From an uncultured Pseudomonadales bacterium (GTDB lineage: Bacteria > Patescibacteriota > Microgenomatia > UBA1400 > UBA1449), in the NCBI GenBank assembly GCA_964386355.1, contig CAYLQQ010000002.1:45374-109373 (forward strand): DNA of 64,000 nt, given 5' to 3'. Within the stretch, counting starts at the first letter, position 1; each line of letters begins with the position of its first letter. Both the position numbers and the translations under genes were made by a program. The notes under the pieces were generated by a model. That model was not told the DNA's origin and ran no database searches. It was given only the letters and a program-made list of their open reading frames with translations. Below are positions 1,895-35,290 of the stretch, piece by piece.

Positions 1895-4150
1895 TCAATA
1901 CTCCGGAAGGATATTATAAACAATTGTTCCCTCGTATAGATCAGATGGCTGAAGATAATTTACCTCTATTGCATAGCTTACATAAACCGTTTTTTCTTCA
2001 GCTTCTTGTGAGGACATGACGCTGTGTGAGATGGTGCTTAAAGGACCAAATTTTGCTGATGCATTTGACCACCCCTCCACTCTTGTATCAGATGTATTTA
2101 CGCCCACCCAGCCCGTATTAACGTTCCGTACTATGCCATTTGGTGCTGACCATATTTGTGGGGTTTGCCATGTGACAGAAGTTGCGGCAAATTCATCAAT
2201 ATTATTATCGGGGTAGTTCCCCTGCATTTGATTATACAGTTTGACGCTAACATCATAGCCATAGTCTGTATTGCTGTTTACCGTCAGCTTGTGAGATCCG
2301 AACTTCGGTACGCCAACACTGAGATTACCGAATGGAAGGGTAGTGTGGGTTGTGTTTATATTTGTTGTAATTCCGTTGTTTGAAGTTCCTGTAGGTACAC
2401 CTTCGATAGCAAAAGATAAGCTAGGAGTAGCTCGATGGTATATATCAAATGTTTGTCCATCACTTTGTACTGCTGAAAATGATTGTAGAAGCAAGAGATC
2501 TGAATATATGGTTTGCTCAATGGGGTATGTTGTATAGTCGCCTGCGGTTTTATTGATTCGGATGTAGTACAGAGGATGTCCACCATTTACGGTTGATTTA
2601 GTCCATTCATTCGGAACAGTATAGTACACATTTCCAGCACTTGTAAATGTGCTAGCTCCTGAGTTGCTATTAGATATTGCAAGGGTAGACCAGGTATCAC
2701 AAGGAGTATTGATATCCAAGTTTGAGCCGCAGTAAGACCAAACGGTTATAATACCAGAACCTGCACCTTTGGTTTGTAGTTGGGTATTTACACCGCTAAA
2801 CTGCGTGTGATTACCCAGGTAAAGGTAATCATTAGAATTGTCAAAAATCTGGTAGCTGCCCTGATCAAAACTGGCATTATCTTGACTATCAGCCAAGTAC
2901 TCATTTGTATCAGATGCCAAGCCACCTCTTGCCAGCTGTTTCCAGGTGTTTGAGCTGTCATAAAACCAAGCTTGTGAAAATGGTATTAAATTGGCATTAT
3001 AATCTGTATTGATCGTACGGTTTGTGCCTTCGATAGAGAAATTGGTTGGTACATTGCTTGTGCGCCAGTTTCTAAATTTGAATATAGGGGCATATCTTGA
3101 GTACGTTTCCCCATCCAAATTAAAAGAAATTATATTGTTTGAAGTTATTAGCGGGTAACTGTTTTGGGTTTGGTTAAAGTAGTCGCTTTCTCCTGTATTG
3201 GTAAACTCACTAGCAGAACTCCAGGCTGAACCTACAGATATTTTGCCAAATAAGCTGTCTGGTTGCCATAAATCTACAGCATAGCTTTTTGCTTCATTAC
3301 CGCTTAAGCTATTATCGTCAGTAATCTGAAAAACATAAGTATACGTATATGACTGTCCTCCAGAAAGACTATCATCAGTAATCAAACCGGCTGTAATTAC
3401 ATTTTCATCATTCTGGTATAAAAATTCATTATTTGGGAAAAAGCTGGGTACTTCTAGGGCATGTATCATGTAATCATTATCAGTACCGGTAGCTGGGTCA
3501 GAACCGGTGAGTGTTAGGCTAATCCCAGGAGCTGTGTATGTAATGTCAGCCACGCTCTGAATAGCTGCGCTTGGTGTGACGGTACCAGGAGCTGTATCAT
3601 GATCAGAAATAAAAGCATTTTCATCAAATAAGCTTGGTGCAAACGAAATGTAAGGTCCAGTCATTCCAGTACCAGCTGTGGATGAGCTAAAGGCACCATG
3701 CACCACAATCCTATCGGGATATATGGTATAGATTTGGGTATATTCTCCATCATTACTAGAACCGCAAGCTCCGTCTGTAAAATCATAGAGATCCCCGCTT
3801 ACTGAGATGACAATTCTTGTTTGAGTAGATTCCAAAAGGTGTATTGAAGCATTACTTTCACAAAACATGCTGTTTGTATCTCGTGTGACTAAACCCATTC
3901 CATATAACCGATTTGAAGTGCTACTAGTATCGATAATATTAGTGCTGCTTGAGCTGGGAATAACTAAGCTCGATAGTACTCCCCCGAGATCGCTCCTAAA
4001 CGTTGCTTTCCAGCTCGGGGTGGAATTACTGTTAACAACAATTGTGGTTGCAGTTATAGAGTCTACGCTCACTGATGCGGCATATACTTGTTGAGTGCAG
4101 GTCAGAAAGGTGAACGATATGAGAAATAGAAAGATACATGTTAATCGCAT
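1895..4150 (-). CDS. large secreted Ser/Thr/Asn-rich surface protein (751 aa) with a C-terminal domain shared with the downstream paralog
   Basis: Signal peptide MRLTCIFLFLISFTFLTCTQQVYA; very high S/T/N/G content. C-terminal ~140 aa (LPFGNLSVGVPKFGSHKLTVNSN...NTGWVGVNTSD...VYVSYAIEVNYLQPSDLYEGTIVYNILPEY) aligns with the C-terminus of the 369-aa protein at 4229-5338. Confidence 0.6.
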   Translation of the reverse strand: MRLTCIFLFLISFTFLTCTQQVYAASVSVDSITATTIVVNSNSTPSWKATFRSDLGGVLSSLVIPSSSSTNIIDTSSTSNRLYGMGLVTRDTNSMFCESNASIHLLESTQTRIVISVSGDLYDFTDGACGSSNDGEYTQIYTIYPDRIVVHGAFSSSTAGTGMTGPYISFAPSLFDENAFISDHDTAPGTVTPSAAIQSVADITYTAPGISLTLTGSDPATGTDNDYMIHALEVPSFFPNNEFLYQNDENVITAGLITDDSLSGGQSYTYTYVFQITDDNSLSGNEAKSYAVDLWQPDSLFGKISVGSAWSSASEFTNTGESDYFNQTQNSYPLITSNNIISFNLDGETYSRYAPIFKFRNWRTSNVPTNFSIEGTNRTINTDYNANLIPFSQAWFYDSSNTWKQLARGGLASDTNEYLADSQDNASFDQGSYQIFDNSNDYLYLGNHTQFSGVNTQLQTKGAGSGIITVWSYCGSNLDINTPCDTWSTLAISNSNSGASTFTSAGNVYYTVPNEWTKSTVNGGHPLYYIRINKTAGDYTTYPIEQTIYSDLLLLQSFSAVQSDGQTFDIYHRATPSLSFAIEGVPTGTSNNGITTNINTTHTTLPFGNLSVGVPKFGSHKLTVNSNTDYGYDVSVKLYNQMQGNYPDNNIDEFAATSVTWQTPQIWSAPNGIVRNVNTGWVGVNTSDTRVEGWSNASAKFGPLSTISHSVMSSQEAEEKTVYVSYAIEVNYLQPSDLYEGTIVYNILPEY

Positions 4151-8164: not shown

Positions 8165-11973
<3,809 letters not shown>

Positions 11974-18184: not shown

Positions 18185-18213
18185 AAAAAGCCCTGGTGAA
18201 ACAGGGCTTTTTT
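18185..18213. terminator. bidirectional rho-independent terminator between convergent genes (GCCCTG-GTGAAA-CAGGGC)
   Basis: A-run upstream and T-run downstream of a 6-7-bp GC stem. Confidence 0.55.
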
Positions 18214-19252
18214 AGTCATAGAGGCCAGAAGTATCGATCATCTGCCATTGGTGATTAGTAAACGCCCAGTCAACTAGCTTTACTGTCTCTCCGAAGCGGT
18301 CGTAACTACCCAATACTGCTGTTACGATCCGGTGCCCGTCTCGCTCTACATAGGATACGAAGCATTCTCCAGCTGATTCAGTCCATCCTGTTTTAATTCC
18401 TTTTATGCCCGGCACTTTATCCAATAATTGATTAATAGCTATAAGGTCGTGGGGGATTGCATTTGTGACATCGTATACAGTTTCACTTTTAGTTGAGACC
18501 ATTTTTACCAGAGTATCATTCTCCATCAAATGAGAGCCGATGATTGCCAGGTCATGAACTGTAGAGAGGTGTCTGCCATTAGAAAGACCGGCAGGTTCTA
18601 AAAAATAGCTATCTTTAATACCAAAGGCCTCCAGTTTGCGGTTCATCTTTGCCACAAAGCCATCCATGCCATTTGGATCAAGATCAGCAAGGACGTAAGC
18701 TGCATCATTAGCTGAGTGAATGAGCAAGCCTTTAAGTAAATTCTCAACCGTAATATTCTCATCCTGCTGCAAAAACATAACTTGCCCGACACGAAGCGGA
18801 CTGGAAACGCTGGCAACTGTATCGAGCTTGTACTGATCAATAGCGACTAAAGCAGTAAGCATTTTTGTAGTTGATGCCGGGTGAAGTTTCAGATCAGGGT
18901 TTTTCATATACATGACCGCTTTGGAATCGACATCTACCACAATAGCTGACTGGGCGGAAATGTAGGGTGCTTGCGTACCTGTCGCATTAATGGGGTATGG
19001 ATTGGGTGTTGGAATGCTAGCTTTAATTTGTCTATATATCGGCTTGTCTTCAGGGATTTCGAATATGGGATAGGGGATCGTATTGGGAATGGTGAGGAAA
19101 AAGAGTGTAAGAGTAATGGTGAAAATAGAACGTTGTCTGGTTTTGGTCAGGCGCTTGAGATAGTTTCGCAGCTCTTCTTTGAGAGATTGAGGTTTTACAA
19201 GTATTGGTTTTATAACTTTGGGTTTGATAACTTTCTTTTTTGCCATGGTCAT
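18212..19252 (-). CDS. D-alanyl-D-alanine carboxypeptidase (S11, PBP5/6-like)
   Basis: SxxK ASTTKM, SxN HSANDAA, KTG IKTGWTE; N-terminal TM. Confidence 0.85.
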   Translation of the reverse strand: MTMAKKKVIKPKVIKPILVKPQSLKEELRNYLKRLTKTRQRSIFTITLTLFFLTIPNTIPYPIFEIPEDKPIYRQIKASIPTPNPYPINATGTQAPYISAQSAIVVDVDSKAVMYMKNPDLKLHPASTTKMLTALVAIDQYKLDTVASVSSPLRVGQVMFLQQDENITVENLLKGLLIHSANDAAYVLADLDPNGMDGFVAKMNRKLEAFGIKDSYFLEPAGLSNGRHLSTVHDLAIIGSHLMENDTLVKMVSTKSETVYDVTNAIPHDLIAINQLLDKVPGIKGIKTGWTESAGECFVSYVERDGHRIVTAVLGSYDRFGETVKLVDWAFTNHQWQMIDTSGLYD

Positions 19253-19929: not shown

Positions 19930-21810
19930 TTAATTATTTTTTACAAATAATCCAAGTATAGGCTTTTCTGTACTTTTAAAATCCTCGCTTTTCATCTGCA
20001 CTGACTGCGTGTTTGATCCGGCATTGAAGTTGATCCAGGCTTGCTCAAGTAAGCCTTCATCAACATAGGTCGGAATATTAAATAAACTTCCAAATGGCGG
20101 GACGGAACCGGGTCGTAAGCCCGTGACCTTTAGTAACGTATCCTTATCTACTAGAGCAACATCTTTAAATCCAGTTGCTTGCTTAAATGCTTTTAGGTCA
20201 AGTTTAGATGCAGCTGAGACAACAACCATGATGGGTTTGCCATCAGCCATACAAACCAAGGCTTTAGCACCGGATTCTATGGAAGTTCCTCTAGCTTGTG
20301 CGGCCTCTTCGCTGGTAAACACAGGTTTATGCTCGAATTTCTTGTACTCAACTTTTTCATTATCTAAGTAATTGCAGATCTGCTCAAAGATCGATTTAGA
20401 AGTAGTCTGTTTCATAGAGCGGATCTGAATACCCAGCTCTTTCATCTGTTCTTCTGAGATGGGGCTGGGGGCATCCATCACTGCCGTTCTACCTGTTGAG
20501 GTCATCGGGAAGGCAATTGCCTCTTTAAGAGAGCTTTGGTTACTTAATAGCATGACAAACCTGTCTAAACCCAATGCTAGACCACCATGTGGCGGAGTTC
20601 CAAGACGAAACGCTTCAAGCATATGACCAACTGATGCTTCAATTTCTTCTTTAGAATATCCCATTATCTCAAACGTTTTATAAAGAGCGTTTGGGTTATG
20701 TGCCCGGATAGATCCTCCACCCATTTCGTATCCATTACAAACAAGGTCATATTGTGTTGTGAGAATATTCTCAATATTTTTCCCTTCCAGATGATCGGCA
20801 ATAAACTCATCTTTAGGCTGAGAAAACGGGTTGTGAGTGAATGTCCAGCCGCTTTTACCGTCACGCACCTCGGCCACGTCTTCTTTATTTACTTTCTTGA
20901 AAAATGGAAAGTCTACTACCCAAGCAAAAGCTAATACTCCATCCTTCTTTTCCTGTTCCGTTCGGATATCAAACCTGTCTGCACCATAGGTTTTAATAGC
21001 TTCATCATAAGTAATTATGGGAAATTTCCCTTCTCTTAGTTTACCTCCTACAGCCAAGATTGCTGCTTTGGTAGCCTGTTCAACCATTTCCATTACGTCC
21101 TCTCGTTTGACAAAGGACATCTCCAAATCAAGCTGGGTAAACTCAAATCCCCGGTCAGCCCGCAGATCCTCATCGCGGATGCAACGGGCAATCTGGAAAT
21201 AGCGTTCAAAGCCGGCTGTCATCAAAAGCTGTTTGTACTGCTGGGGTGATTGGGGCAAGGCATAGAACTTGCCTGGTTGGAAACGGGAAGGAACCACAAA
21301 ATCTCGGGCGCCTTCTTTGGTTGATTTGGTCAGCATGGGTGTCTCGATCTCGACAAAATCATTGGCAAATAAAGACTTGCGGAACTCTTCGATGAGCTTA
21401 CTTCGAAGCCTGATTGCTTTTTGCAGACGCTCACGTCGAAGGTCCAGGTATCTGTATTTTAACTTGAGCTCTTCATCAAGTTGAGTGCCATCAGTATCTA
21501 TGGGGAAGGGTAGTTCTTTGCATTCATTTAACAGGCTAAATGATGATGCTTGAATTTCGATTGCGCCGGTAGGAAGGTCTTTATTTACCATTTGCTCGGG
21601 ACGGTTATTAACTATACCGACTACTTCAACCACATCTTCCTGACTGAGTTTTCCCATTTTTGAGTCGCCCACTACCTGCACCTTGCCCGATCTATCGCGA
21701 AGCTCGATGAAAACTAATTTGCCGTGATCGCGGACCGTATCAACCCAACCTTGTAGCAAGATCTCCTCACCAATCTTTTTAAATGTTTCAAGTGCGAGTG
21801 TGCGTTTCAT
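19930..21810 (-). CDS. aspS: aspartyl-tRNA synthetase (no GAD insertion) with a C-terminal YbaK/ProX-type deacylase domain
   Basis: Class II motif 2 FQIARCIRDEDLRADRGFEFTQLDLEMSF, motif 3 GGLALGLDRFVMLL. The C-terminal ~155 aa (KALVCMADGKPIMVVVSAASKLDLKAFKQATGFKDVALVDKDTLLKVTGLRPGSVPPFG) aligns along its length with E. coli YbaK, including the conserved Lys and the GxxxPxG loop. Good SD AAAGGAGATAT before the ATG. Confidence 0.85.
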   Translation of the reverse strand: MKRTLALETFKKIGEEILLQGWVDTVRDHGKLVFIELRDRSGKVQVVGDSKMGKLSQEDVVEVVGIVNNRPEQMVNKDLPTGAIEIQASSFSLLNECKELPFPIDTDGTQLDEELKLKYRYLDLRRERLQKAIRLRSKLIEEFRKSLFANDFVEIETPMLTKSTKEGARDFVVPSRFQPGKFYALPQSPQQYKQLLMTAGFERYFQIARCIRDEDLRADRGFEFTQLDLEMSFVKREDVMEMVEQATKAAILAVGGKLREGKFPIITYDEAIKTYGADRFDIRTEQEKKDGVLAFAWVVDFPFFKKVNKEDVAEVRDGKSGWTFTHNPFSQPKDEFIADHLEGKNIENILTTQYDLVCNGYEMGGGSIRAHNPNALYKTFEIMGYSKEEIEASVGHMLEAFRLGTPPHGGLALGLDRFVMLLSNQSSLKEAIAFPMTSTGRTAVMDAPSPISEEQMKELGIQIRSMKQTTSKSIFEQICNYLDNEKVEYKKFEHKPVFTSEEAAQARGTSIESGAKALVCMADGKPIMVVVSAASKLDLKAFKQATGFKDVALVDKDTLLKVTGLRPGSVPPFGSLFNIPTYVDEGLLEQAWINFNAGSNTQSVQMKSEDFKSTEKPILGLFVKNN

Positions 21811-22005
21811 ATATCTCCTTTAATCATTAATAATTTGAACAATAGGTACAAAAAAACCGCCATAGTTCCCCATCAAAAAGGGCCAATCTGGCGGTACCAC
21901 CTAATTCTTTACTTATCCTGCTATTACGGGCTTACCCGTTCCGGTTATTACTCCGGACAGCTCGTCCTTTGTCAGAGGACTCAGACGCTTGTATGATTTA
22001 TTAGT
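21811..22005 (-). promoter_or_regulatory. T-box-like riboswitch leader of aspS (Asp specifier GAC)
   Basis: On the minus-strand RNA, a T-box sequence AAUUAGGUGGUACCGCC (plus strand 21890-21906) overlaps a terminator, CCGCCAGA...CUAUGGCGG followed by UUUUUUU (21851-21894). Upstream, the hairpin GUCCU-CUGACAA-AGGAC (21964-21980) carries GAC in its loop. A CGGGUAAGCCCG hairpin and an AGCAGG block are shared with the serS leader. Confidence 0.6.
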
Positions 22006-22064
22006 AATAATTATAAAATATGAGGGAAAAAAATACAAACTGAAATCAAAACCTAATTTAATTA

Positions 22065-22093
22065 TTGACGAGAGCGAAGTTTACTATAGAATA
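22065..22093 (+). promoter_or_regulatory. putative sigma70-like promoter (TTGACG-N16-TAGAAT)
   Basis: Consensus-like hexamers read from the sequence; drives the short structured transcript at 22100-22250. Confidence 0.3.
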
Positions 22094-22223
22094 ATTAGGC
22101 TATGAATTGCAGATCCAATTACCAACACCTTACCAAATGCCAAGTCCGCTTTATGTGGATTATTTTGGGTGGTATTAAGGAGGTTCTTGGGTAAGTTTGT
22201 ATAAAAAGATAGAAAACCAAAAC

Positions 22224-22249
22224 CTCCTTAAACCAAGGAGGTTTTTTTA
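22224..22249 (+). terminator. rho-independent terminator (CCTCCTT-AAACC-AAGGAGG, then T7) that also sequesters the SD of the next ORF
   Basis: Perfect 7-bp stem followed by TTTTTTT and ATG at 22249. An upstream copy of AAGGAGGTT (about 22166) can pair with the same CCTCCTT instead. Confidence 0.5.
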
Positions 22250-22494
22250 TGCCCTATGATGAAACCGCAACTTCTTTCTCAATCAACCGATTCAAACCTG
22301 TATGTAAGCAGAGGCACTGAACTGCCTTGGCAGTATGTATATCGGCAACTACGCCTACATAAGCTTTCAGATGTAACCAGCTATCAAGTTAACGGTAATT
22401 TGTACATCGTTGTTTCGGTGGGAAAGGAGAAAAATAATGCATAATTTTAAAATATCAATGTTCAAAATAGTTAATAATTTTATTGGAGGTAAAT

Positions 22495-22689
22495 ATGCCT
22501 AGAGAAATGGATAGTCCTATAGTGGGGGCATCTTACATGCCGGATCCTGAAAATGCTAGGAGAGAGTTAGTGCATGCTGTAGCAGAAGCACAGAAATTAC
22601 TGGAACTACATGGAATAGATTCCTCTGCATTAAGCATGAGCCCACTGGAAACATTATCAGTAGCAGCGCAAATACAAACGTATTCATAA
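22495..22689 (+). CDS. small hypothetical protein (64 aa)
   Basis: Strong SD GGAGG 5 nt before ATG 22495; followed by a terminator at 22757-22778. Confidence 0.45.
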   Translation: MPREMDSPIVGASYMPDPENARRELVHAVAEAQKLLELHGIDSSALSMSPLETLSVAAQIQTYS

Positions 22690-22756
22690 GATTTATAGGT
22701 CATACATAGAAAGTATGTATACATAAAGACCGCAATCTCTTATACAATAGCAAAAG

Positions 22757-22778
22757 AAACGCGAAAGCGTTTTTTTTG
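22757..22778 (+). terminator. rho-independent terminator (AAACGC-GAAA-GCGTTT, then T-run)
   Basis: Read directly; palindromic context, so it may act in both directions. Confidence 0.5.
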
Positions 22779-22804
22779 CGGTTAATCATAAATTTAAAGT
22801 TATT

Positions 22805-23095
22805 ATGTCACAGCTTTGTGAGAGAGAACGAGTCCGTATGGTCGAAGATTTGGGATTACCCTCAAGTTGTGACTTTTATAGAATATTAACTGTCAAAGAG
22901 GGTGAGGAACTAGTTAAAAAGTTTAATGTATTAGCCCAAAAATTTTCTACTGATGGAGCCGAGTGTTTTGATTTAAAGGAAGCGTATTTGCATATGTTAC
23001 GTACTACGCAGTTTAATAAGGATAATTTGCCGCAACATGTTTCTATACCATCACTTTTTGTATTTAATAAACTGTATGATCAATATGGAAAATGA
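22805..23095 (+). CDS. hypothetical protein (96 aa)
   Basis: ATG ORF with no motif recognised. Confidence 0.35.
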   Translation: MSQLCERERVRMVEDLGLPSSCDFYRILTVKEGEELVKKFNVLAQKFSTDGAECFDLKEAYLHMLRTTQFNKDNLPQHVSIPSLFVFNKLYDQYGK

Positions 23096-23097
23096 GA

Positions 23098-28778: not shown

Positions 28779-30809
<2,031 letters not shown>

Positions 30810-32995: not shown

Positions 32996-35290
32996 ATGTA
33001 TTGGGCAGATAAAATCGCAGATCAGATTGTAAAAAGTGGACAGCATAAACCATACTGGGTTGATGATATGAAAACCCCCTCTGGAAGGATTCATGTTGGG
33101 TCTTTACGGGGTGTGTTGATACATGATTTTGTCCACAAAGCTCTTATGCATCAAGGAAAATCCTCGACTTTTACGTATGTGTACAACGACATGGATCCAA
33201 TGGATGCATTACCGGGGTACTTAGATAAAGATGTTTATACTCAACATATGGGTAAGCCTCTGTATAAAATACCTGCACCTGAAGGTAACAAAAGTTTTGC
33301 TCAGTATTATGCCGATGAGTTTACTGGGGTTTTTAATCGCCTTGGGGCAACTCCCAAGATAGTGTTGTCGCATGAGCTGTATGAATCCGGCCAGATGAAT
33401 CCTCTTATACAGATAGCTTTAGATAATGTTGAAGAGTTAAAACACATTTATCGCGACATTGCTCATTACGAATTAGAAAAGAACTGGTATCCATTTCAGG
33501 TATTCTGTGAGCACTGCGGAAAAGAGGGTTCTACTACAACCTATCATTGGGATGGTGAGTATGTATATTACCGATGTGAAAAAAGTAAAGTAGAATGGGC
33601 TGTTGGCTGTGGTCATGAGGGCAAGGTTTCACCCTTTAACGGTACCGGTAAATTTCTTTGGAAAGTTGACTGGCCAGCTCACTGGAAGTTGATTGGTATT
33701 ACTATTGAAGGTGCTGGAAAGGATCATACTTCAGCCGGAGGTTCCCGTGATATGGCTCGGGAAATTGTGAAGCGTGTTTTCAAATACCCTGAGCCGTATG
33801 ACATCCCTTATGAGTGGTTGCTTATCCGTGGTGCCAAAATGTCTTCATCTAAAGGTATTGGAGCCTCTGCTAAAGAGTTTGCTGATCTTTTACCTCCGGA
33901 AGTGGGTAGGTTCTTGTTTGCCCGTACCCATTGCAATACAGTAATCGATTTTGATTTAGTTGGTAATACCATCCCTGATCTATTTGATGAATATGACAAA
34001 TGTGCACAGGCATATTTTAGTGGTAAACAAGATATGTATGCCCGGATTTATGAAGCTTCACAAGTGACTGATAAAAAATCAGATCCCGTATTTTTACCAA
34101 GATTTAGAGATGTAGCAATGTATAGCCAAATGCCCAGCGTTGATCTGATTGCAAAATTTGAACAGGTAAAAGGTTCTATCTTATCACCTGCAGAAAGGCA
34201 TATCCTGGAAGAGAGGGTAAATTACGCAAAGAAGTGGATTAAAAACTATGCTCCGTCTAATTTGAACTTTCAACTCTCAGATAACTCAACTCAATCTGTA
34301 ACACTTAATCAAAAACAGAAAGATTATTTAGGCTCTGTAATAGCGTTATTACAGAAAACATGGAATAAACCGGAAGATTTTCAATTTGAGCTGTTTGAAG
34401 AAACAAAACGACTTGGAATTTCAGCCAAGGAAGCTTTTGCTGCCATTTATCAGATACTGTTAGGTAAGAATTTTGGTCCTAAAGCAGCATGGTTTCTGTT
34501 GGAACAGGATAAAGAAGAGTTAATTAAGCGATTTAGCGAGGTGATAGGAGAAACTAATAAAAGTGATGTATCCATTTCCCAAACTTTTCCAACAATTACT
34601 GACTCAAAGATGATACAAATCAGTACAGCCATTGCACATCAATACCCTTCAGTGCATATCGGGTTTGCCATTATCAGAGGCATACAAGTGGTCAAAACCA
34701 ATGAACAGCTAGAACAAGAAAAAGAAACCCTATATGCAAAACTAAAAAGCATGACGACAGAAGAGATTGGCACTATGCCAGAGATCTTAAGTTATAGAAA
34801 AATGTACAAACAAATGGGGGTAGATTGGCATTCCAGAAGGCCTAGTCCAGAAGCTTTACTACGCCGTATCGTACAAGGCAAGGATTTGTATGCTGTAAAT
34901 ACTTGCGTTGATGCGTACAACCTGATTGTGATGAAATATAGAGTAAGTGTCGGGACATTTGACCTAAAAAATTTGGATTTTCCGGTAGAACTGTGTGTTG
35001 CGAAGGGTGGAGAAAAGATATTGCTTTTGGGCAATGATGAAGAAACCGAAATAAAAGCAGGTGAAGTGTATTATCAAGATCAAACTGGACCATACAATCT
35101 AGATTATAACTACAGAGACTCTCAGCGGGTGAGTGTGAATGAAGACACTGAAGACATTATGATCAACGTTGATGGCGTGTATGATGTTGGTAGACCACAT
35201 GTAGAAAGAGCACTGAAAGAGACTTTAGAGATTATCAAAAAGTACTGCGGTGGAGTGATAGAAGTCGCTGGTATTATTGAAGCGAAATAA
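32996..35290 (+). CDS. class I lysyl-tRNA synthetase with a C-terminal B3/4 (COG3382-like) domain
   Basis: HIGH-region TPSGRIHVGSLRG and KMSSSKG are the LysRS-I signature. Residues about 540-764 (PSPEALLRRIVQGKDLYAVNTCVDAYNLIVMKYRVSVGTFDL...GEVYYQD) fit the B3/4 tRNA-binding/editing-domain pattern known from PheRS beta. Confidence 0.75.
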   Translation: MYWADKIADQIVKSGQHKPYWVDDMKTPSGRIHVGSLRGVLIHDFVHKALMHQGKSSTFTYVYNDMDPMDALPGYLDKDVYTQHMGKPLYKIPAPEGNKSFAQYYADEFTGVFNRLGATPKIVLSHELYESGQMNPLIQIALDNVEELKHIYRDIAHYELEKNWYPFQVFCEHCGKEGSTTTYHWDGEYVYYRCEKSKVEWAVGCGHEGKVSPFNGTGKFLWKVDWPAHWKLIGITIEGAGKDHTSAGGSRDMAREIVKRVFKYPEPYDIPYEWLLIRGAKMSSSKGIGASAKEFADLLPPEVGRFLFARTHCNTVIDFDLVGNTIPDLFDEYDKCAQAYFSGKQDMYARIYEASQVTDKKSDPVFLPRFRDVAMYSQMPSVDLIAKFEQVKGSILSPAERHILEERVNYAKKWIKNYAPSNLNFQLSDNSTQSVTLNQKQKDYLGSVIALLQKTWNKPEDFQFELFEETKRLGISAKEAFAAIYQILLGKNFGPKAAWFLLEQDKEELIKRFSEVIGETNKSDVSISQTFPTITDSKMIQISTAIAHQYPSVHIGFAIIRGIQVVKTNEQLEQEKETLYAKLKSMTTEEIGTMPEILSYRKMYKQMGVDWHSRRPSPEALLRRIVQGKDLYAVNTCVDAYNLIVMKYRVSVGTFDLKNLDFPVELCVAKGGEKILLLGNDEETEIKAGEVYYQDQTGPYNLDYNYRDSQRVSVNEDTEDIMINVDGVYDVGRPHVERALKETLEIIKKYCGGVIEVAGIIEAK

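What the first reader, a model, noticed from the sequence alone, without database searches (positions are those of the whole stretch)
19930..21810. AspRS lacking the GAD insertion and carrying a C-terminal YbaK/ProX-type trans-editing domain
Seen in sequence:
- The catalytic core runs from motif 2 to motif 3 without the bacterial GAD domain.
- A ~155-aa extension follows. It aligns across its length with E. coli YbaK, including K...LDLKK...G.K, the TG...G.V.PFG loop, and the conserved Lys.

Established knowledge: YbaK/ProX-family domains deacylate mischarged tRNAs (Cys-, Ala-, Ser- and Thr-tRNAPro and related), normally free-standing or inside ProRS.

Inference: a cis-fused deacylase on AspRS is not an arrangement I know. 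It could proofread a specific mischarging product, or act on Asp-tRNAAsn if this AspRS is non-discriminating.
Basis: partly seen in the sequence, partly recalled or inferred. Interest (0 to 1): 0.6.

Follow-up and report, generated by a model that had tools for sequence, protein, structure and literature searches.

The report
AspRS fused to a tRNA-editing domain
This gene encodes an aspartyl-tRNA synthetase that lacks the usual bacterial GAD insert and carries a C-terminal YbaK/ProX-type aminoacyl-tRNA deacylase domain, an arrangement common in ultra-small CPR bacteria and DPANN archaea that I could not find described in the literature and that suggests proofreading on an enzyme thought to have none.

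Summary
ORF 19930-21810 (-), 626 aa, is a bacterial-type AspRS above the NCBIfam equivalog cutoff. It has no GAD insertion. It carries a C-terminal INS-superfamily (YbaK/ProX fold) domain: Pfam tRNA_edit E=1e-27, model pLDDT 95, TM about 0.8 to solved relatives. The catalytic Lys516 and the GXXXP loop are invariant.

It is not an artefact. More than 120 homolog clusters share the architecture.

It is not YbaK itself. Its nearest relative is the uncharacterised lpg1207 (3op6) subfamily, which is mostly free-standing.

New context:
- GAD loss is general in Patescibacteria (80 of 80 loci), but the editing domain is patchy: fused, adjacent as a separate gene, or absent, interleaved on the tree.
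- DPANN archaea carry the same domain on a GAD-containing AspRS, with gatCAB 5-10 kb away.
- One CPR lineage couples the editing gene translationally to an archaeal-type AspRS.
- All 150 fused or split enzymes have the His seen in the non-discriminating AspRS structures compared here.
- The Asp pocket is identical in fused and unfused enzymes.

Best reading: a tethered deacylase acting on an AspRS product, most plausibly Asp-tRNAAsn that escapes transamidation. The substrate is untested. I found no description of this architecture in the literature. It is a new variant of a known kind.

The parts
19930..21810 (-). Complete ORF, 626 aa plus stop codon: AspRS fused to an editing domain.
21532..21759 (-). 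N-terminal OB-fold anticodon-binding domain, residues 18-93.
   Evidence: Pfam PF01336, E=3.3e-13. Aligns to AspRS structures.
21724..21726 (-). His29 in the motif RDHG, the position that differs between the ND (His) and discriminating (Leu) AspRS structures compared here.
   Evidence: The residue is invariant in 43/43 CPR fused or split enzymes and 107/107 DPANN fusions.
20500..21477 (-). Class IIb catalytic core, residues 112-437, including QSPQQYKQ (187-194), RDEDLRADR (212-220) and GLDR (414-417).
   Evidence: Pfam PF00152, E=1.7e-107. Motif residues are invariant.
20923..20961 (-). Site where the bacterial GAD insertion (about 105 aa) is missing, residues about 284-296 (TEQEKKDGVLAFA).
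   Evidence: Alignment gap relative to 4rmf and 4o2d. No PF02938 hit. Translation checked.
20392..20499 (-). Bacterial-type C-terminal tail of AspRS plus a flexible linker, residues 438-473.
   Evidence: Aligns to the C-terminus of solved AspRS up to about residue 466. pLDDT is below 50 for 444-451 and 458-461.
19933..20391 (-). INS-superfamily (YbaK/ProX fold) aminoacyl-tRNA editing domain, residues 474-626.
   Evidence: Pfam PF04073, E=1.1e-27. 3op6 at E=1.2e-19. Model pLDDT 95.1. Foldseek TM 0.79-0.86.
20263..20265 (-). Lys516, the counterpart of the catalytic Lys of the INS superfamily.
   Evidence: Invariant in A1, A2 and A4. Aligned with the YbaK K46 position. Translation checked.
20095..20109 (-). 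GXXXP loop, G568-S-V-P-P572.
   Evidence: G568, P571, P572 and G574 are invariant. Translation checked. The loop is a defining feature of the superfamily according to PMC11286415.

Best explanation
The gene encodes a working AspRS, probably non-discriminating so that it also charges tRNAAsn. A catalytically competent INS-superfamily aminoacyl-tRNA deacylase is attached to its C-terminus by a flexible linker of about 30 residues.

Proposed mechanism:
1. The dimeric synthetase binds tRNA through its OB-fold domain and aspartylates it.
2. The tethered domain can then capture the acylated CCA end as it leaves the synthetic site.
3. It hydrolyses the ester bond using Lys516 and the GXXXP oxyanion loop.

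The target I consider most likely is Asp-tRNAAsn that is not handed on to the GatCAB amidotransferase. That would make the domain a fail-safe keeping Asp out of Asn codons.

Shown here: AspRS identity, editing-domain identity and fold, conservation of catalytic residues, and a recurrent genetic link with AspRS.

Inferred: non-discriminating status, cis action, and the substrate.
For: The AspRS is intact:
- It scores above the equivalog cutoff, and all catalytic and Asp-pocket residues are invariant.

The editing domain looks active:
- Lys516, G568, P571, P572 and G574, plus H494, T499, N596 and D610, are invariant across 34 homologs at 55-82% identity.
- The fold is confirmed.
- Lys and GXXXP are the features that define the superfamily.

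The link to AspRS recurs with three different kinds of AspRS:
- Fused to the GAD-less bacterial type in CPR.
- Fused to the GAD-containing bacterial type in DPANN, in more than 100 clusters.
- Present as a separate gene immediately downstream of, or translationally coupled to, the bacterial type (L007, L073).
- Translationally coupled to an archaeal-type 'aspartate--tRNA(Asn) ligase' (L085, NF003483 486 bits against a cutoff of 353).

Hints that the fused enzymes are non-discriminating:
- His in RDHG is found in 150/150 fused or split enzymes.
- The same His occurs in structures named Asp/Asn ligase, while the discriminating T. thermophilus enzyme has Leu and a shorter loop.
- The only unfused AspRSs found next to an AsnRS gene with this position readable (L023, L025; L049 is masked there) have Met at this position.
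- gatC, gatA and gatB lie 5-10 kb from the fusion gene in both DPANN loci examined.

Supporting context:
- The linker has low pLDDT, consistent with a flexible tether.
- H. pylori GluRS2 hydrolyses excess Glu-tRNAGln, which is a precedent. ND-AspRS retention of Asp-tRNAAsn is described as editing-like.
Against: - No biochemical data exist for this subfamily. The closest solved structure, lpg1207, is uncharacterised.
- asnS and gatCAB were not found in the roughly 74 kb of this genome that I could inspect. The pathway is therefore unknown for this organism.
- Asp-tRNAAsn is an essential intermediate when GatCAB is used, so hydrolysis would have to be kinetically restrained.
- The domain is dispensable in many close relatives: unfused enzymes are interleaved with fused ones.
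- The family is free-standing in unrelated gene contexts in other bacteria. This fits a more general function.
- The His signature also occurs in 49 of 71 unfused enzymes.
Confidence: 0.4

Rival explanations
1. The domain performs classical amino-acid proofreading. It removes a non-cognate amino acid or analogue that AspRS mis-attaches to tRNAAsp or tRNAAsn, as INS does for Ala-tRNAPro on ProRS.
For: - All characterised INS-superfamily members select by amino acid.
- The catalytic residues are conserved.
- The domain is on the same polypeptide as a class II aaRS, like the ProRS INS domain and the ProXp-ala-ProRS fusions.
- CPR and DPANN organisms are commonly described as scavenging amino acids, so they could meet unusual amino-acid pools. 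This is general knowledge, not tested here.
Against: - No alignment column of the AspRS core distinguishes fused from unfused enzymes, and the Asp pocket is identical. Nothing suggests a leakier synthetic site.
- AspRS is not known to need editing.
- The domain is frequently lost.
Confidence: 0.25
2. The domain is a general trans-editing factor of broad tRNA specificity. It is tethered to, or co-expressed with, an abundant dimeric tRNA-binding enzyme, which gives it tRNA affinity or matched expression in a streamlined genome. It has no special relation to Asp or Asn.
For: - The family is mostly free-standing: 3523 representative hits, many of 150-165 aa.
- It occurs in unrelated contexts and in other fusions: Peptidase_S11, RuvX, and triple tandems.
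- L081 keeps the gene with no AspRS nearby.
- The same window has a class I LysRS carrying a B3/B4 editing-type domain, which suggests a lineage habit of appending editing modules.
- Added domains raise tRNA binding in plant ProXp-ala and T. brucei MCP3.
Against: - Among aaRS partners seen here, only AspRS recurs, in three different AspRS types and in two domains of life.
- Translational coupling is retained after in-situ replacement of the synthetase in L085.
Confidence: 0.2
3. The domain is non-catalytic. It binds or shields the acylated CCA end, for example to hold Asp-tRNAAsn for hand-over to GatCAB, taking over a role proposed for GAD.
For: - GAD has been proposed to trap Asp-tRNAAsn next to the active site.
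- CPR enzymes lack GAD.
Against: - The catalytic Lys and the GXXXP loop are invariant.
- DPANN fusions have both GAD and the domain.
- 71 of 80 CPR AspRS lack both.
Confidence: 0.07
4. The domain substitutes for D-aminoacyl-tRNA deacylase, clearing D-Asp-tRNAAsp.
For: - From memory: AspRS can charge D-Asp.
- The gene has a conserved neighbourhood with a D-Ala-D-Ala carboxypeptidase.
Against: - A canonical Dtd (PF02580) is encoded just beyond the window end in the same contig.
- The neighbourhood is explained by general synteny among related genomes.
Confidence: 0.05
5. The architecture is an assembly or gene-calling artefact that joins two genes.
For: Separate adjacent genes exist in some relatives.
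Against: - The ORF is continuous.
- More than 120 independent clusters have the same architecture.
- GC content is continuous across the junction.
- The artefact I did find runs the other way: public gene calls split continuous fused ORFs.
Confidence: 0.01

Closest known systems
Bacterial ProRS with the INS editing domain, and the ProXp-ala-ProRS fusions of protists
   Same: An INS-superfamily deacylase domain (Lys plus GXXXP) sits on the same polypeptide as a class II synthetase and edits its product.
   Different: - The partner here is AspRS (class IIb), not ProRS.
- The domain is C-terminal on a flexible linker, not inserted between motifs 2 and 3 and not N-terminal.
- It belongs to a different, uncharacterised subfamily, and its substrate is unknown.
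- A 2024 review lists ProRS as the only synthetase partner for this superfamily.
Free-standing lpg1207 (PDB 3op6)-like proteins, an uncharacterised branch of the YbaK/ProX superfamily
   Same: - Closest relative by sequence (E=1.2e-19) and structure (TM 0.79-0.86).
- Free-standing homologs of 38-49% identity share the motifs EHxPVxTSExAA, GAKAL, G[SA][VI]PPFG and FNAG.
   Different: Here the domain is covalently attached to AspRS. No function is known for the free-standing proteins.
YbaK (Cys-tRNAPro deacylase), ProXp-ala and ProXp-x
   Same: Same fold and the same catalytic Lys and loop.
   Different: - Sequence similarity is remote (E about 1e-7).
- The YbaK equivalog cutoffs are missed by a wide margin.
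Bifunctional AspRS/GatC fusion (NCBIfam NF009460), and transamidosomes built on non-discriminating AspRS
   Same: A module that deals with the Asp-tRNAAsn product is appended to the AspRS C-terminus, or assembled with AspRS.
   Different: The appended module here is a hydrolase-type editing domain, not an amidotransferase subunit. NF009460 scores 389 bits against a cutoff of 1379.
H. pylori GluRS2, which hydrolyses excess Glu-tRNAGln
   Same: A non-discriminating synthetase of an indirect pathway that removes surplus mischarged intermediate (citing PMC3241645).
   Different: That paper's title attributes the hydrolysis to GluRS2 itself; no separate editing domain is mentioned in what I read, and I did not read the paper. 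The system is Glu/Gln, not Asp/Asn.

Membership tests
Bacterial-type aspartyl-tRNA synthetase (aspS; NF001750 / TIGR00459) | Whole-protein score above the curated equivalog cutoff. | tested here: met
   NF001750 scores 591 bits against 443. TIGR00459 scores 512 bits against 374.
Bacterial-type aspartyl-tRNA synthetase (aspS; NF001750 / TIGR00459) | N-terminal OB-fold anticodon-binding domain, plus a class II core with the QSPQ Asp-binding motif and the motif 2 and 3 arginines. | tested here: met
   PF01336 and PF00152 hits. QSPQQYKQ, RDEDLRADR and GLDR are invariant.
Bacterial-type aspartyl-tRNA synthetase (aspS; NF001750 / TIGR00459) | GAD insertion domain between motifs 2 and 3, which the literature uses to tell bacterial-type from archaeal-type AspRS. 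| tested here: not met
   No PF02938 hit. About 105 residues are missing relative to 4rmf. All 80 Patescibacteria loci are equally short.
Bacterial-type aspartyl-tRNA synthetase (aspS; NF001750 / TIGR00459) | Aspartylation of tRNAAsp. | not testable with these tools
   Needs an enzyme assay.
INS (YbaK/ProX) superfamily of aminoacyl-tRNA deacylases | Pfam tRNA_edit (PF04073) score above the gathering cutoff. | tested here: met
   97 bits against 25.5, E=1.1e-27.
INS (YbaK/ProX) superfamily of aminoacyl-tRNA deacylases | Strictly conserved catalytic Lys and Gly-XXX-Pro loop (PMC11286415). | tested here: met
   K516 and G568-SVP-P572 are invariant in fused and free-standing relatives.
INS (YbaK/ProX) superfamily of aminoacyl-tRNA deacylases | YbaK-like alpha/beta fold. 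| tested here: met
   Model pLDDT 95.1. All 37 significant Foldseek PDB hits contain a YbaK/ProX-type (INS-superfamily) domain, with TM 0.7-0.85.
INS (YbaK/ProX) superfamily of aminoacyl-tRNA deacylases | Hydrolysis of an aminoacyl-tRNA ester bond. | not testable with these tools
   Needs a deacylation assay.
YbaK proper (Cys-tRNAPro deacylase; TIGR00011, NF007951) | Score above the curated equivalog cutoff. | tested here: not met
   TIGR00011 scores 63-67 bits against 153. NF007951 scores 24-28 bits against 243.
ProXp-ala / ProXp-x | Closest similarity to the characterised members (5vxb, 2cx5). | tested here: not met
   E=9e-7 and E=3e-7, against 1.2e-19 for 3op6. The names some sources give to relatives ('Ala-tRNA(Pro) deacylase') conflict with each other, so I did not rely on them.
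Non-discriminating AspRS (Asp-tRNAAsn-forming) | Genome lacks AsnRS and has GatCAB. | tested here: inconclusive
   Neither asnS nor gatCAB is present in the roughly 74 kb of this genome that I inspected. gatCAB lies beside the DPANN fusion genes.
Non-discriminating AspRS (Asp-tRNAAsn-forming) | Anticodon-domain signature: His rather than Leu in RDxG, and a longer L1-type loop. | tested here: met
   The query has RDHG, like 5w25 and 4rmf (named Asp/Asn ligase). 6hhv (named Asp ligase) has RDLG. The His is present in 150/150 fused enzymes. The diagnostic value of this signature rests on PDB molecule names and on my memory of a P. aeruginosa mutagenesis study that I could not retrieve.
Non-discriminating AspRS (Asp-tRNAAsn-forming) | Aspartylation of tRNAAsn; U1-A72 in tRNAAsn. 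| not testable with these tools
   No tRNA-Asn or tRNA-Asp gene was found in the window or in the 60 of the related loci that were scanned.

The most novel reading that the evidence does not exclude
The appended domain proofreads by tRNA identity rather than by amino-acid identity. It would hydrolyse Asp-tRNAAsn but spare Asp-tRNAAsp on a non-discriminating AspRS. That would give CPR bacteria and DPANN archaea a built-in safety valve for the transamidation route to Asn-tRNAAsn. It would be the first editing activity associated with an AspRS.
Probability: 0.3. Interest if true: 0.8.

Novelty: new variant of a known kind. Interest (0 to 1): 0.62.

Why it matters
AspRS is the textbook example of a synthetase with no editing function. 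A 2024 review lists ProRS as the only synthetase partner of the INS superfamily.

A conserved and widespread AspRS-deacylase fusion, in two radiations of ultra-small organisms, points to an unrecognised fidelity problem in Asp/Asn decoding. It also gives a concrete functional lead for a large uncharacterised branch of the YbaK/ProX superfamily.

The natural series of states offers ready-made comparisons for experiment:
- fused
- translationally coupled
- free-standing
- absent

There is also an annotation consequence. Some public gene calls split continuous fused ORFs, and some label the protein only as 'amino acid--tRNA ligase-related protein'.

Tried and rejected
Rejected readings:
1. Assembly artefact. 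Rejected by the continuous ORF, more than 120 concordant clusters and continuous GC.
2. YbaK or ProXp-ala orthologue. Rejected because the equivalog cutoffs are missed and 3op6 is far closer.
3. 'The editing domain replaces GAD'. Rejected because DPANN fusions have both, and 71 of 80 CPR AspRS have neither.
4. A relaxed Asp pocket in fused enzymes. No alignment column discriminates fused from unfused, apart from one surface position at residue 100.
5. A Dtd substitute. A canonical Dtd is encoded next to the window.

Dead ends:
6. tRNA-Asn/Asp acceptor-stem test. No such tRNA gene is in the window or in the 60 of the related loci that were scanned.
7. asnS and gatCAB. Not found in the window, in the 10 kb extension, or in the CPR loci, using motif and phmmer searches. 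The look-up at the left end of the window failed.
8. Metagenome locus scan with free-standing alignments. It failed because no conserved 7-mer was available.
9. 'Free-standing' database proteins. P0300, P0292 and P0283 turned out to be partial gene calls of continuous fused ORFs. Counts of free-standing forms are therefore inflated.
10. Single or multiple origin of the fusion. The editing-domain NJ tree places the DPANN fusions apart from several CPR clusters, but the alignment is only 154 columns and has no support values. I leave this open.
11. Literature. Nine searches found no description of an AspRS-INS fusion, of GAD-less CPR AspRS, or of lpg1207 function.
12. Regulatory RNA. Rfam found nothing near aspS.
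Full report
**What is there.** The minus-strand ORF 19930..21810 encodes 626 residues.
- Pfam finds an OB-fold anticodon-binding domain (18-93), the class II D/K/N catalytic core (112-437, E=1.7e-107) and the aminoacyl-tRNA editing domain PF04073 (494-612, E=1.1e-27).
- NCBIfam places the protein above the curated cutoff of the bacterial aspS equivalogs (NF001750, 591 bits against 443), but matched in two stretches.
- Alignments to solved bacterial AspRSs show why. Query residues 13-284 pair with chain residues 15-287. The alignment then resumes at chain residue about 395. The roughly 105-residue GAD insertion is simply absent.
- No PF02938 hit is found. The same library detects GAD in a related protein, so this negative is meaningful.
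- After the normal bacterial C-terminal tail (to about residue 466), a stretch of low predicted confidence leads into a compact domain of about 150 residues.

**The C-terminal domain.**
- By sequence it is closest to PDB 3op6, the uncharacterised Legionella protein lpg1207 (E=1.2e-19).
- It is only remotely similar to YbaK (about 8e-8), ProXp-x/TTHA1699 (3e-7), ProXp-ala (9e-7) and the ProRS INS domain (5e-5).
- It falls far below the curated cutoffs for YbaK.
- A dedicated AlphaFold model is very confident (pLDDT 95.1, pTM 0.89).
- Foldseek against the PDB returns only proteins containing a YbaK/ProX-type (INS-superfamily) domain among its 37 significant hits, with TM 0.7-0.85.
- The literature names two features as defining the superfamily: a strictly conserved Lys and a Gly-XXX-Pro loop. 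Both are present, as K516 and G568-S-V-P-P572. Both are invariant in 34 fusion homologs of 55-82% identity, along with H494, T499, N596 and D610.
The domain is not a YbaK orthologue. It belongs to a separate branch that has no assigned activity.

**Not an artefact, and not rare.** All 120 best homolog clusters in the 5.8-billion-protein collection carry the same three Pfam domains. They span 56-100% identity and contigs up to 1.4 Mb. They come from NCBI, JGI, ENA and Logan, and are named Beckwithbacteria, Dojkabacteria, Woesebacteria or Patescibacteria. GC content is continuous across the junction.

**How the two unusual features are distributed.** A scan of GTDB species representatives returned 80 Patescibacteria loci. 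I analysed them with HMMs built from the two halves of the protein.
- Every one of the 80 AspRSs is GAD-less. Unfused ORFs are about 460-550 aa and fused ones about 620-640 aa.
- Only 7 are fused.
- 2 have the editing gene as a separate ORF immediately downstream.
- 71 have no editing domain within 10 kb either side.
- In L007 (WWE3), aspS ends with TAG, followed by a GGGGAG Shine-Dalgarno sequence and the ATG of the editing gene 13 nt later. L073 has a spacer of about 80 nt.
- A neighbour-joining tree of 114 AspRS cores interleaves fused and unfused enzymes. For example, unfused L012 sits beside fused L001, and unfused L002 is 70% identical to the window protein. This implies repeated loss or fission (no support values).
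- No alignment column of the AspRS core separates fused from unfused enzymes, and every catalytic and Asp-pocket residue is identical. Nothing suggests a leakier synthetic site that would call for amino-acid editing.

**The wider family.** An exhaustive search of 1.84 billion representatives with the 160-residue domain gave the following.
- 3523 hits at E<=1e-3 and 855 at E<=1e-10.
- Most hits are 150-165-aa single-domain proteins, 38-49% identical to the query and sharing all its motifs.
- A few are fusions or triple tandems.

Some 'free-standing' entries are gene-calling artefacts. In L083, L084 and L086 the DNA contains continuous fused ORFs of 637-639 aa, of which only the last 144-166 residues were called. 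Genuine free-standing genes also exist.
- L081 keeps the gene in the same syntenic slot as the window (CCA enzyme, RecJ..., edit, Peptidase_S11..., GluRS) with no AspRS remnant.
- L082, L087 and L088 carry it in unrelated contexts.

**Two findings that bear on function.**

First, the same editing subfamily is fused to a bacterial-type AspRS that retains GAD.
- This form occurs in more than 100 clusters of about 744-aa proteins named Woesearchaeota or Nanoarchaeota, which are DPANN archaea. Close relatives of about 590 aa lack the domain.
- In both DPANN loci examined, gatC, gatA and gatB lie 5-10 kb downstream of the fusion gene.

Second, L085 has a different synthetase in the slot upstream of the editing gene.
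- It is an archaeal-type AspRS that scores above cutoff for 'aspartate--tRNA(Asn) ligase' (NF003483, 486 bits against 353).
- Its stop codon overlaps the editing gene's start as ATGA.

The editing module therefore travels with three different kinds of AspRS. No other synthetase partner turned up.

**Discriminating or not?**
- The fused and split enzymes all have His in the motif RDHG: 43/43 in CPR and 107/107 in DPANN.
- Solved enzymes named Asp/Asn ligase (5w25, 4rmf) share this His and the loop length. The discriminating T. thermophilus enzyme (6hhv) has Leu and a loop two residues shorter.
- Among unfused CPR enzymes the position is H (49), Q (19) or M (2).
- The two Met cases, L023 and L025, both sit next to a bona fide AsnRS gene. 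L025's neighbour scores 541 bits against a cutoff of 414. L049, the third locus with an adjacent AsnRS-like gene, is masked at this position.
- This is suggestive rather than proof. I could not find asnS, gatCAB or tRNA-Asn in the window, in 10 kb beyond its right end, or in the CPR loci.

**Interpretation.** The conserved catalytic residues argue for an active hydrolase. The flexible linker and the recurrent fusion or coupling argue that it acts on tRNA handled by AspRS.

I favour clearance of Asp-tRNAAsn that escapes transamidation (confidence about 0.4), for three reasons.
- The partner enzymes look non-discriminating.
- gatCAB accompanies the DPANN fusions.
- There is a published precedent in GluRS2 hydrolysing excess Glu-tRNAGln, and ND-AspRS is described as retaining Asp-tRNAAsn in an editing-like manner.

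Rivals:
- Classical amino-acid editing on tRNAAsp (0.25).
- A general trans-editing factor merely tethered for tRNA affinity or co-expression (0.2). The free-standing distribution and a second appended editing-type domain in the same window (LysRS-B3/B4) support this.
- A non-catalytic CCA-holding role (0.07).
- A Dtd substitute (0.05). This is weakened by a canonical Dtd next to the window.

**Novelty.**
- Nine literature searches found no description of an AspRS-INS fusion, of GAD-less CPR AspRS, or of lpg1207.
- The GAD insertion is used in the literature as the mark of bacterial-type AspRS.
- The parts are all known. The combination, its breadth across CPR and DPANN, and its implication of editing linked to AspRS appear new.
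- I rate it a new variant of a known kind, with interest about 0.6.

Noticed in passing
window 32996-35290 (+): A 764-aa class I LysRS (PF01921, E=4.7e-89) carries a C-terminal B3/B4 domain (PF03483, residues 600-752, E=4.6e-21), which is the PheRS-beta editing-type fold. It is a second synthetase in this window with an appended editing-type module. Extra C-terminal domains on Microgenomates LysRS are mentioned in PMC5370408.
   Followed up: partly
L001-L080 (Patescibacteria AspRS loci): All 80 Patescibacteria AspRS found in GTDB representatives lack the GAD insertion, whether or not they carry the editing domain. GAD loss looks like a phylum-wide trait.
   Followed up: partly
P0136 and P0327-P0445; L089 10001-12235; L090 10001-12241: DPANN archaea (Woesearchaeota/Nanoarchaeota) encode a bacterial-type AspRS with GAD plus the same C-terminal editing domain (about 744 aa). 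gatC, gatA and gatB lie 5-10 kb downstream.
   Followed up: partly
L085 3712-5465: An archaeal-type AspRS (NF003483, 486 bits) occupies the syntenic slot of the bacterial-type enzyme. It is translationally coupled (ATGA overlap) to a free-standing editing gene. This looks like in-situ replacement of the synthetase with the editing gene retained.
   Followed up: yes
L083 3552-5462; L084 3516-5432; L086 3582-5498: Public gene calls annotate only the last 144-166 residues ('aminoacyl-tRNA deacylase' or 'hypothetical protein') of continuous fused ORFs of 637-639 aa. The AspRS part is left uncalled.
   Followed up: yes
P0164, P0239; window 18212-19252 (-): Proteins exist that join the editing domain to a Peptidase_S11 D-Ala-D-Ala carboxypeptidase. 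They mirror the conserved gene order (editing gene, then S11) seen in the window and in L081 and L083-L086. They could be real fusions or stop-codon read-through calls.
   Followed up: no
P0123, P0127, P0126, P0172: Other architectures occur in the same editing subfamily: three tandem copies in one protein (448 and 491 aa), two hit stretches (apparently two copies) in P0126 (303 aa; only, not Pfam-scanned), and a fusion to RuvX/YqgF.
   Followed up: no
L091 8829-9260 (about 1 kb beyond the right end of the window): A canonical D-aminoacyl-tRNA deacylase (PF02580) is encoded next to a triose-phosphate isomerase gene in the same contig.
   Followed up: no
L023 6016-7413; L025 9947-11254; L049 8451-9557: In some unfused lineages (for example Uhrbacteria) an AsnRS gene lies directly beside aspS. 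In the two loci where the position can be read (L023, L025), the AspRS has Met instead of His in the RDxG motif.
   Followed up: partly
window 21811-23097: The 1.3-kb stretch between aspS and recJ holds only small plus-strand ORFs (62, 68 and 96 aa) and has no Rfam match. A similar gap is seen in related loci.
   Followed up: no
window 1895-4150 (-), 8165-10555 (+), 28848-30809 (+): Two large ORFs (751 and 796 aa) have no Pfam match. A 653-aa ORF combines a Big_1 Ig-like domain with a C-terminal ATP-synthase subunit c hit, and sits among scattered ATP synthase genes.
   Followed up: no
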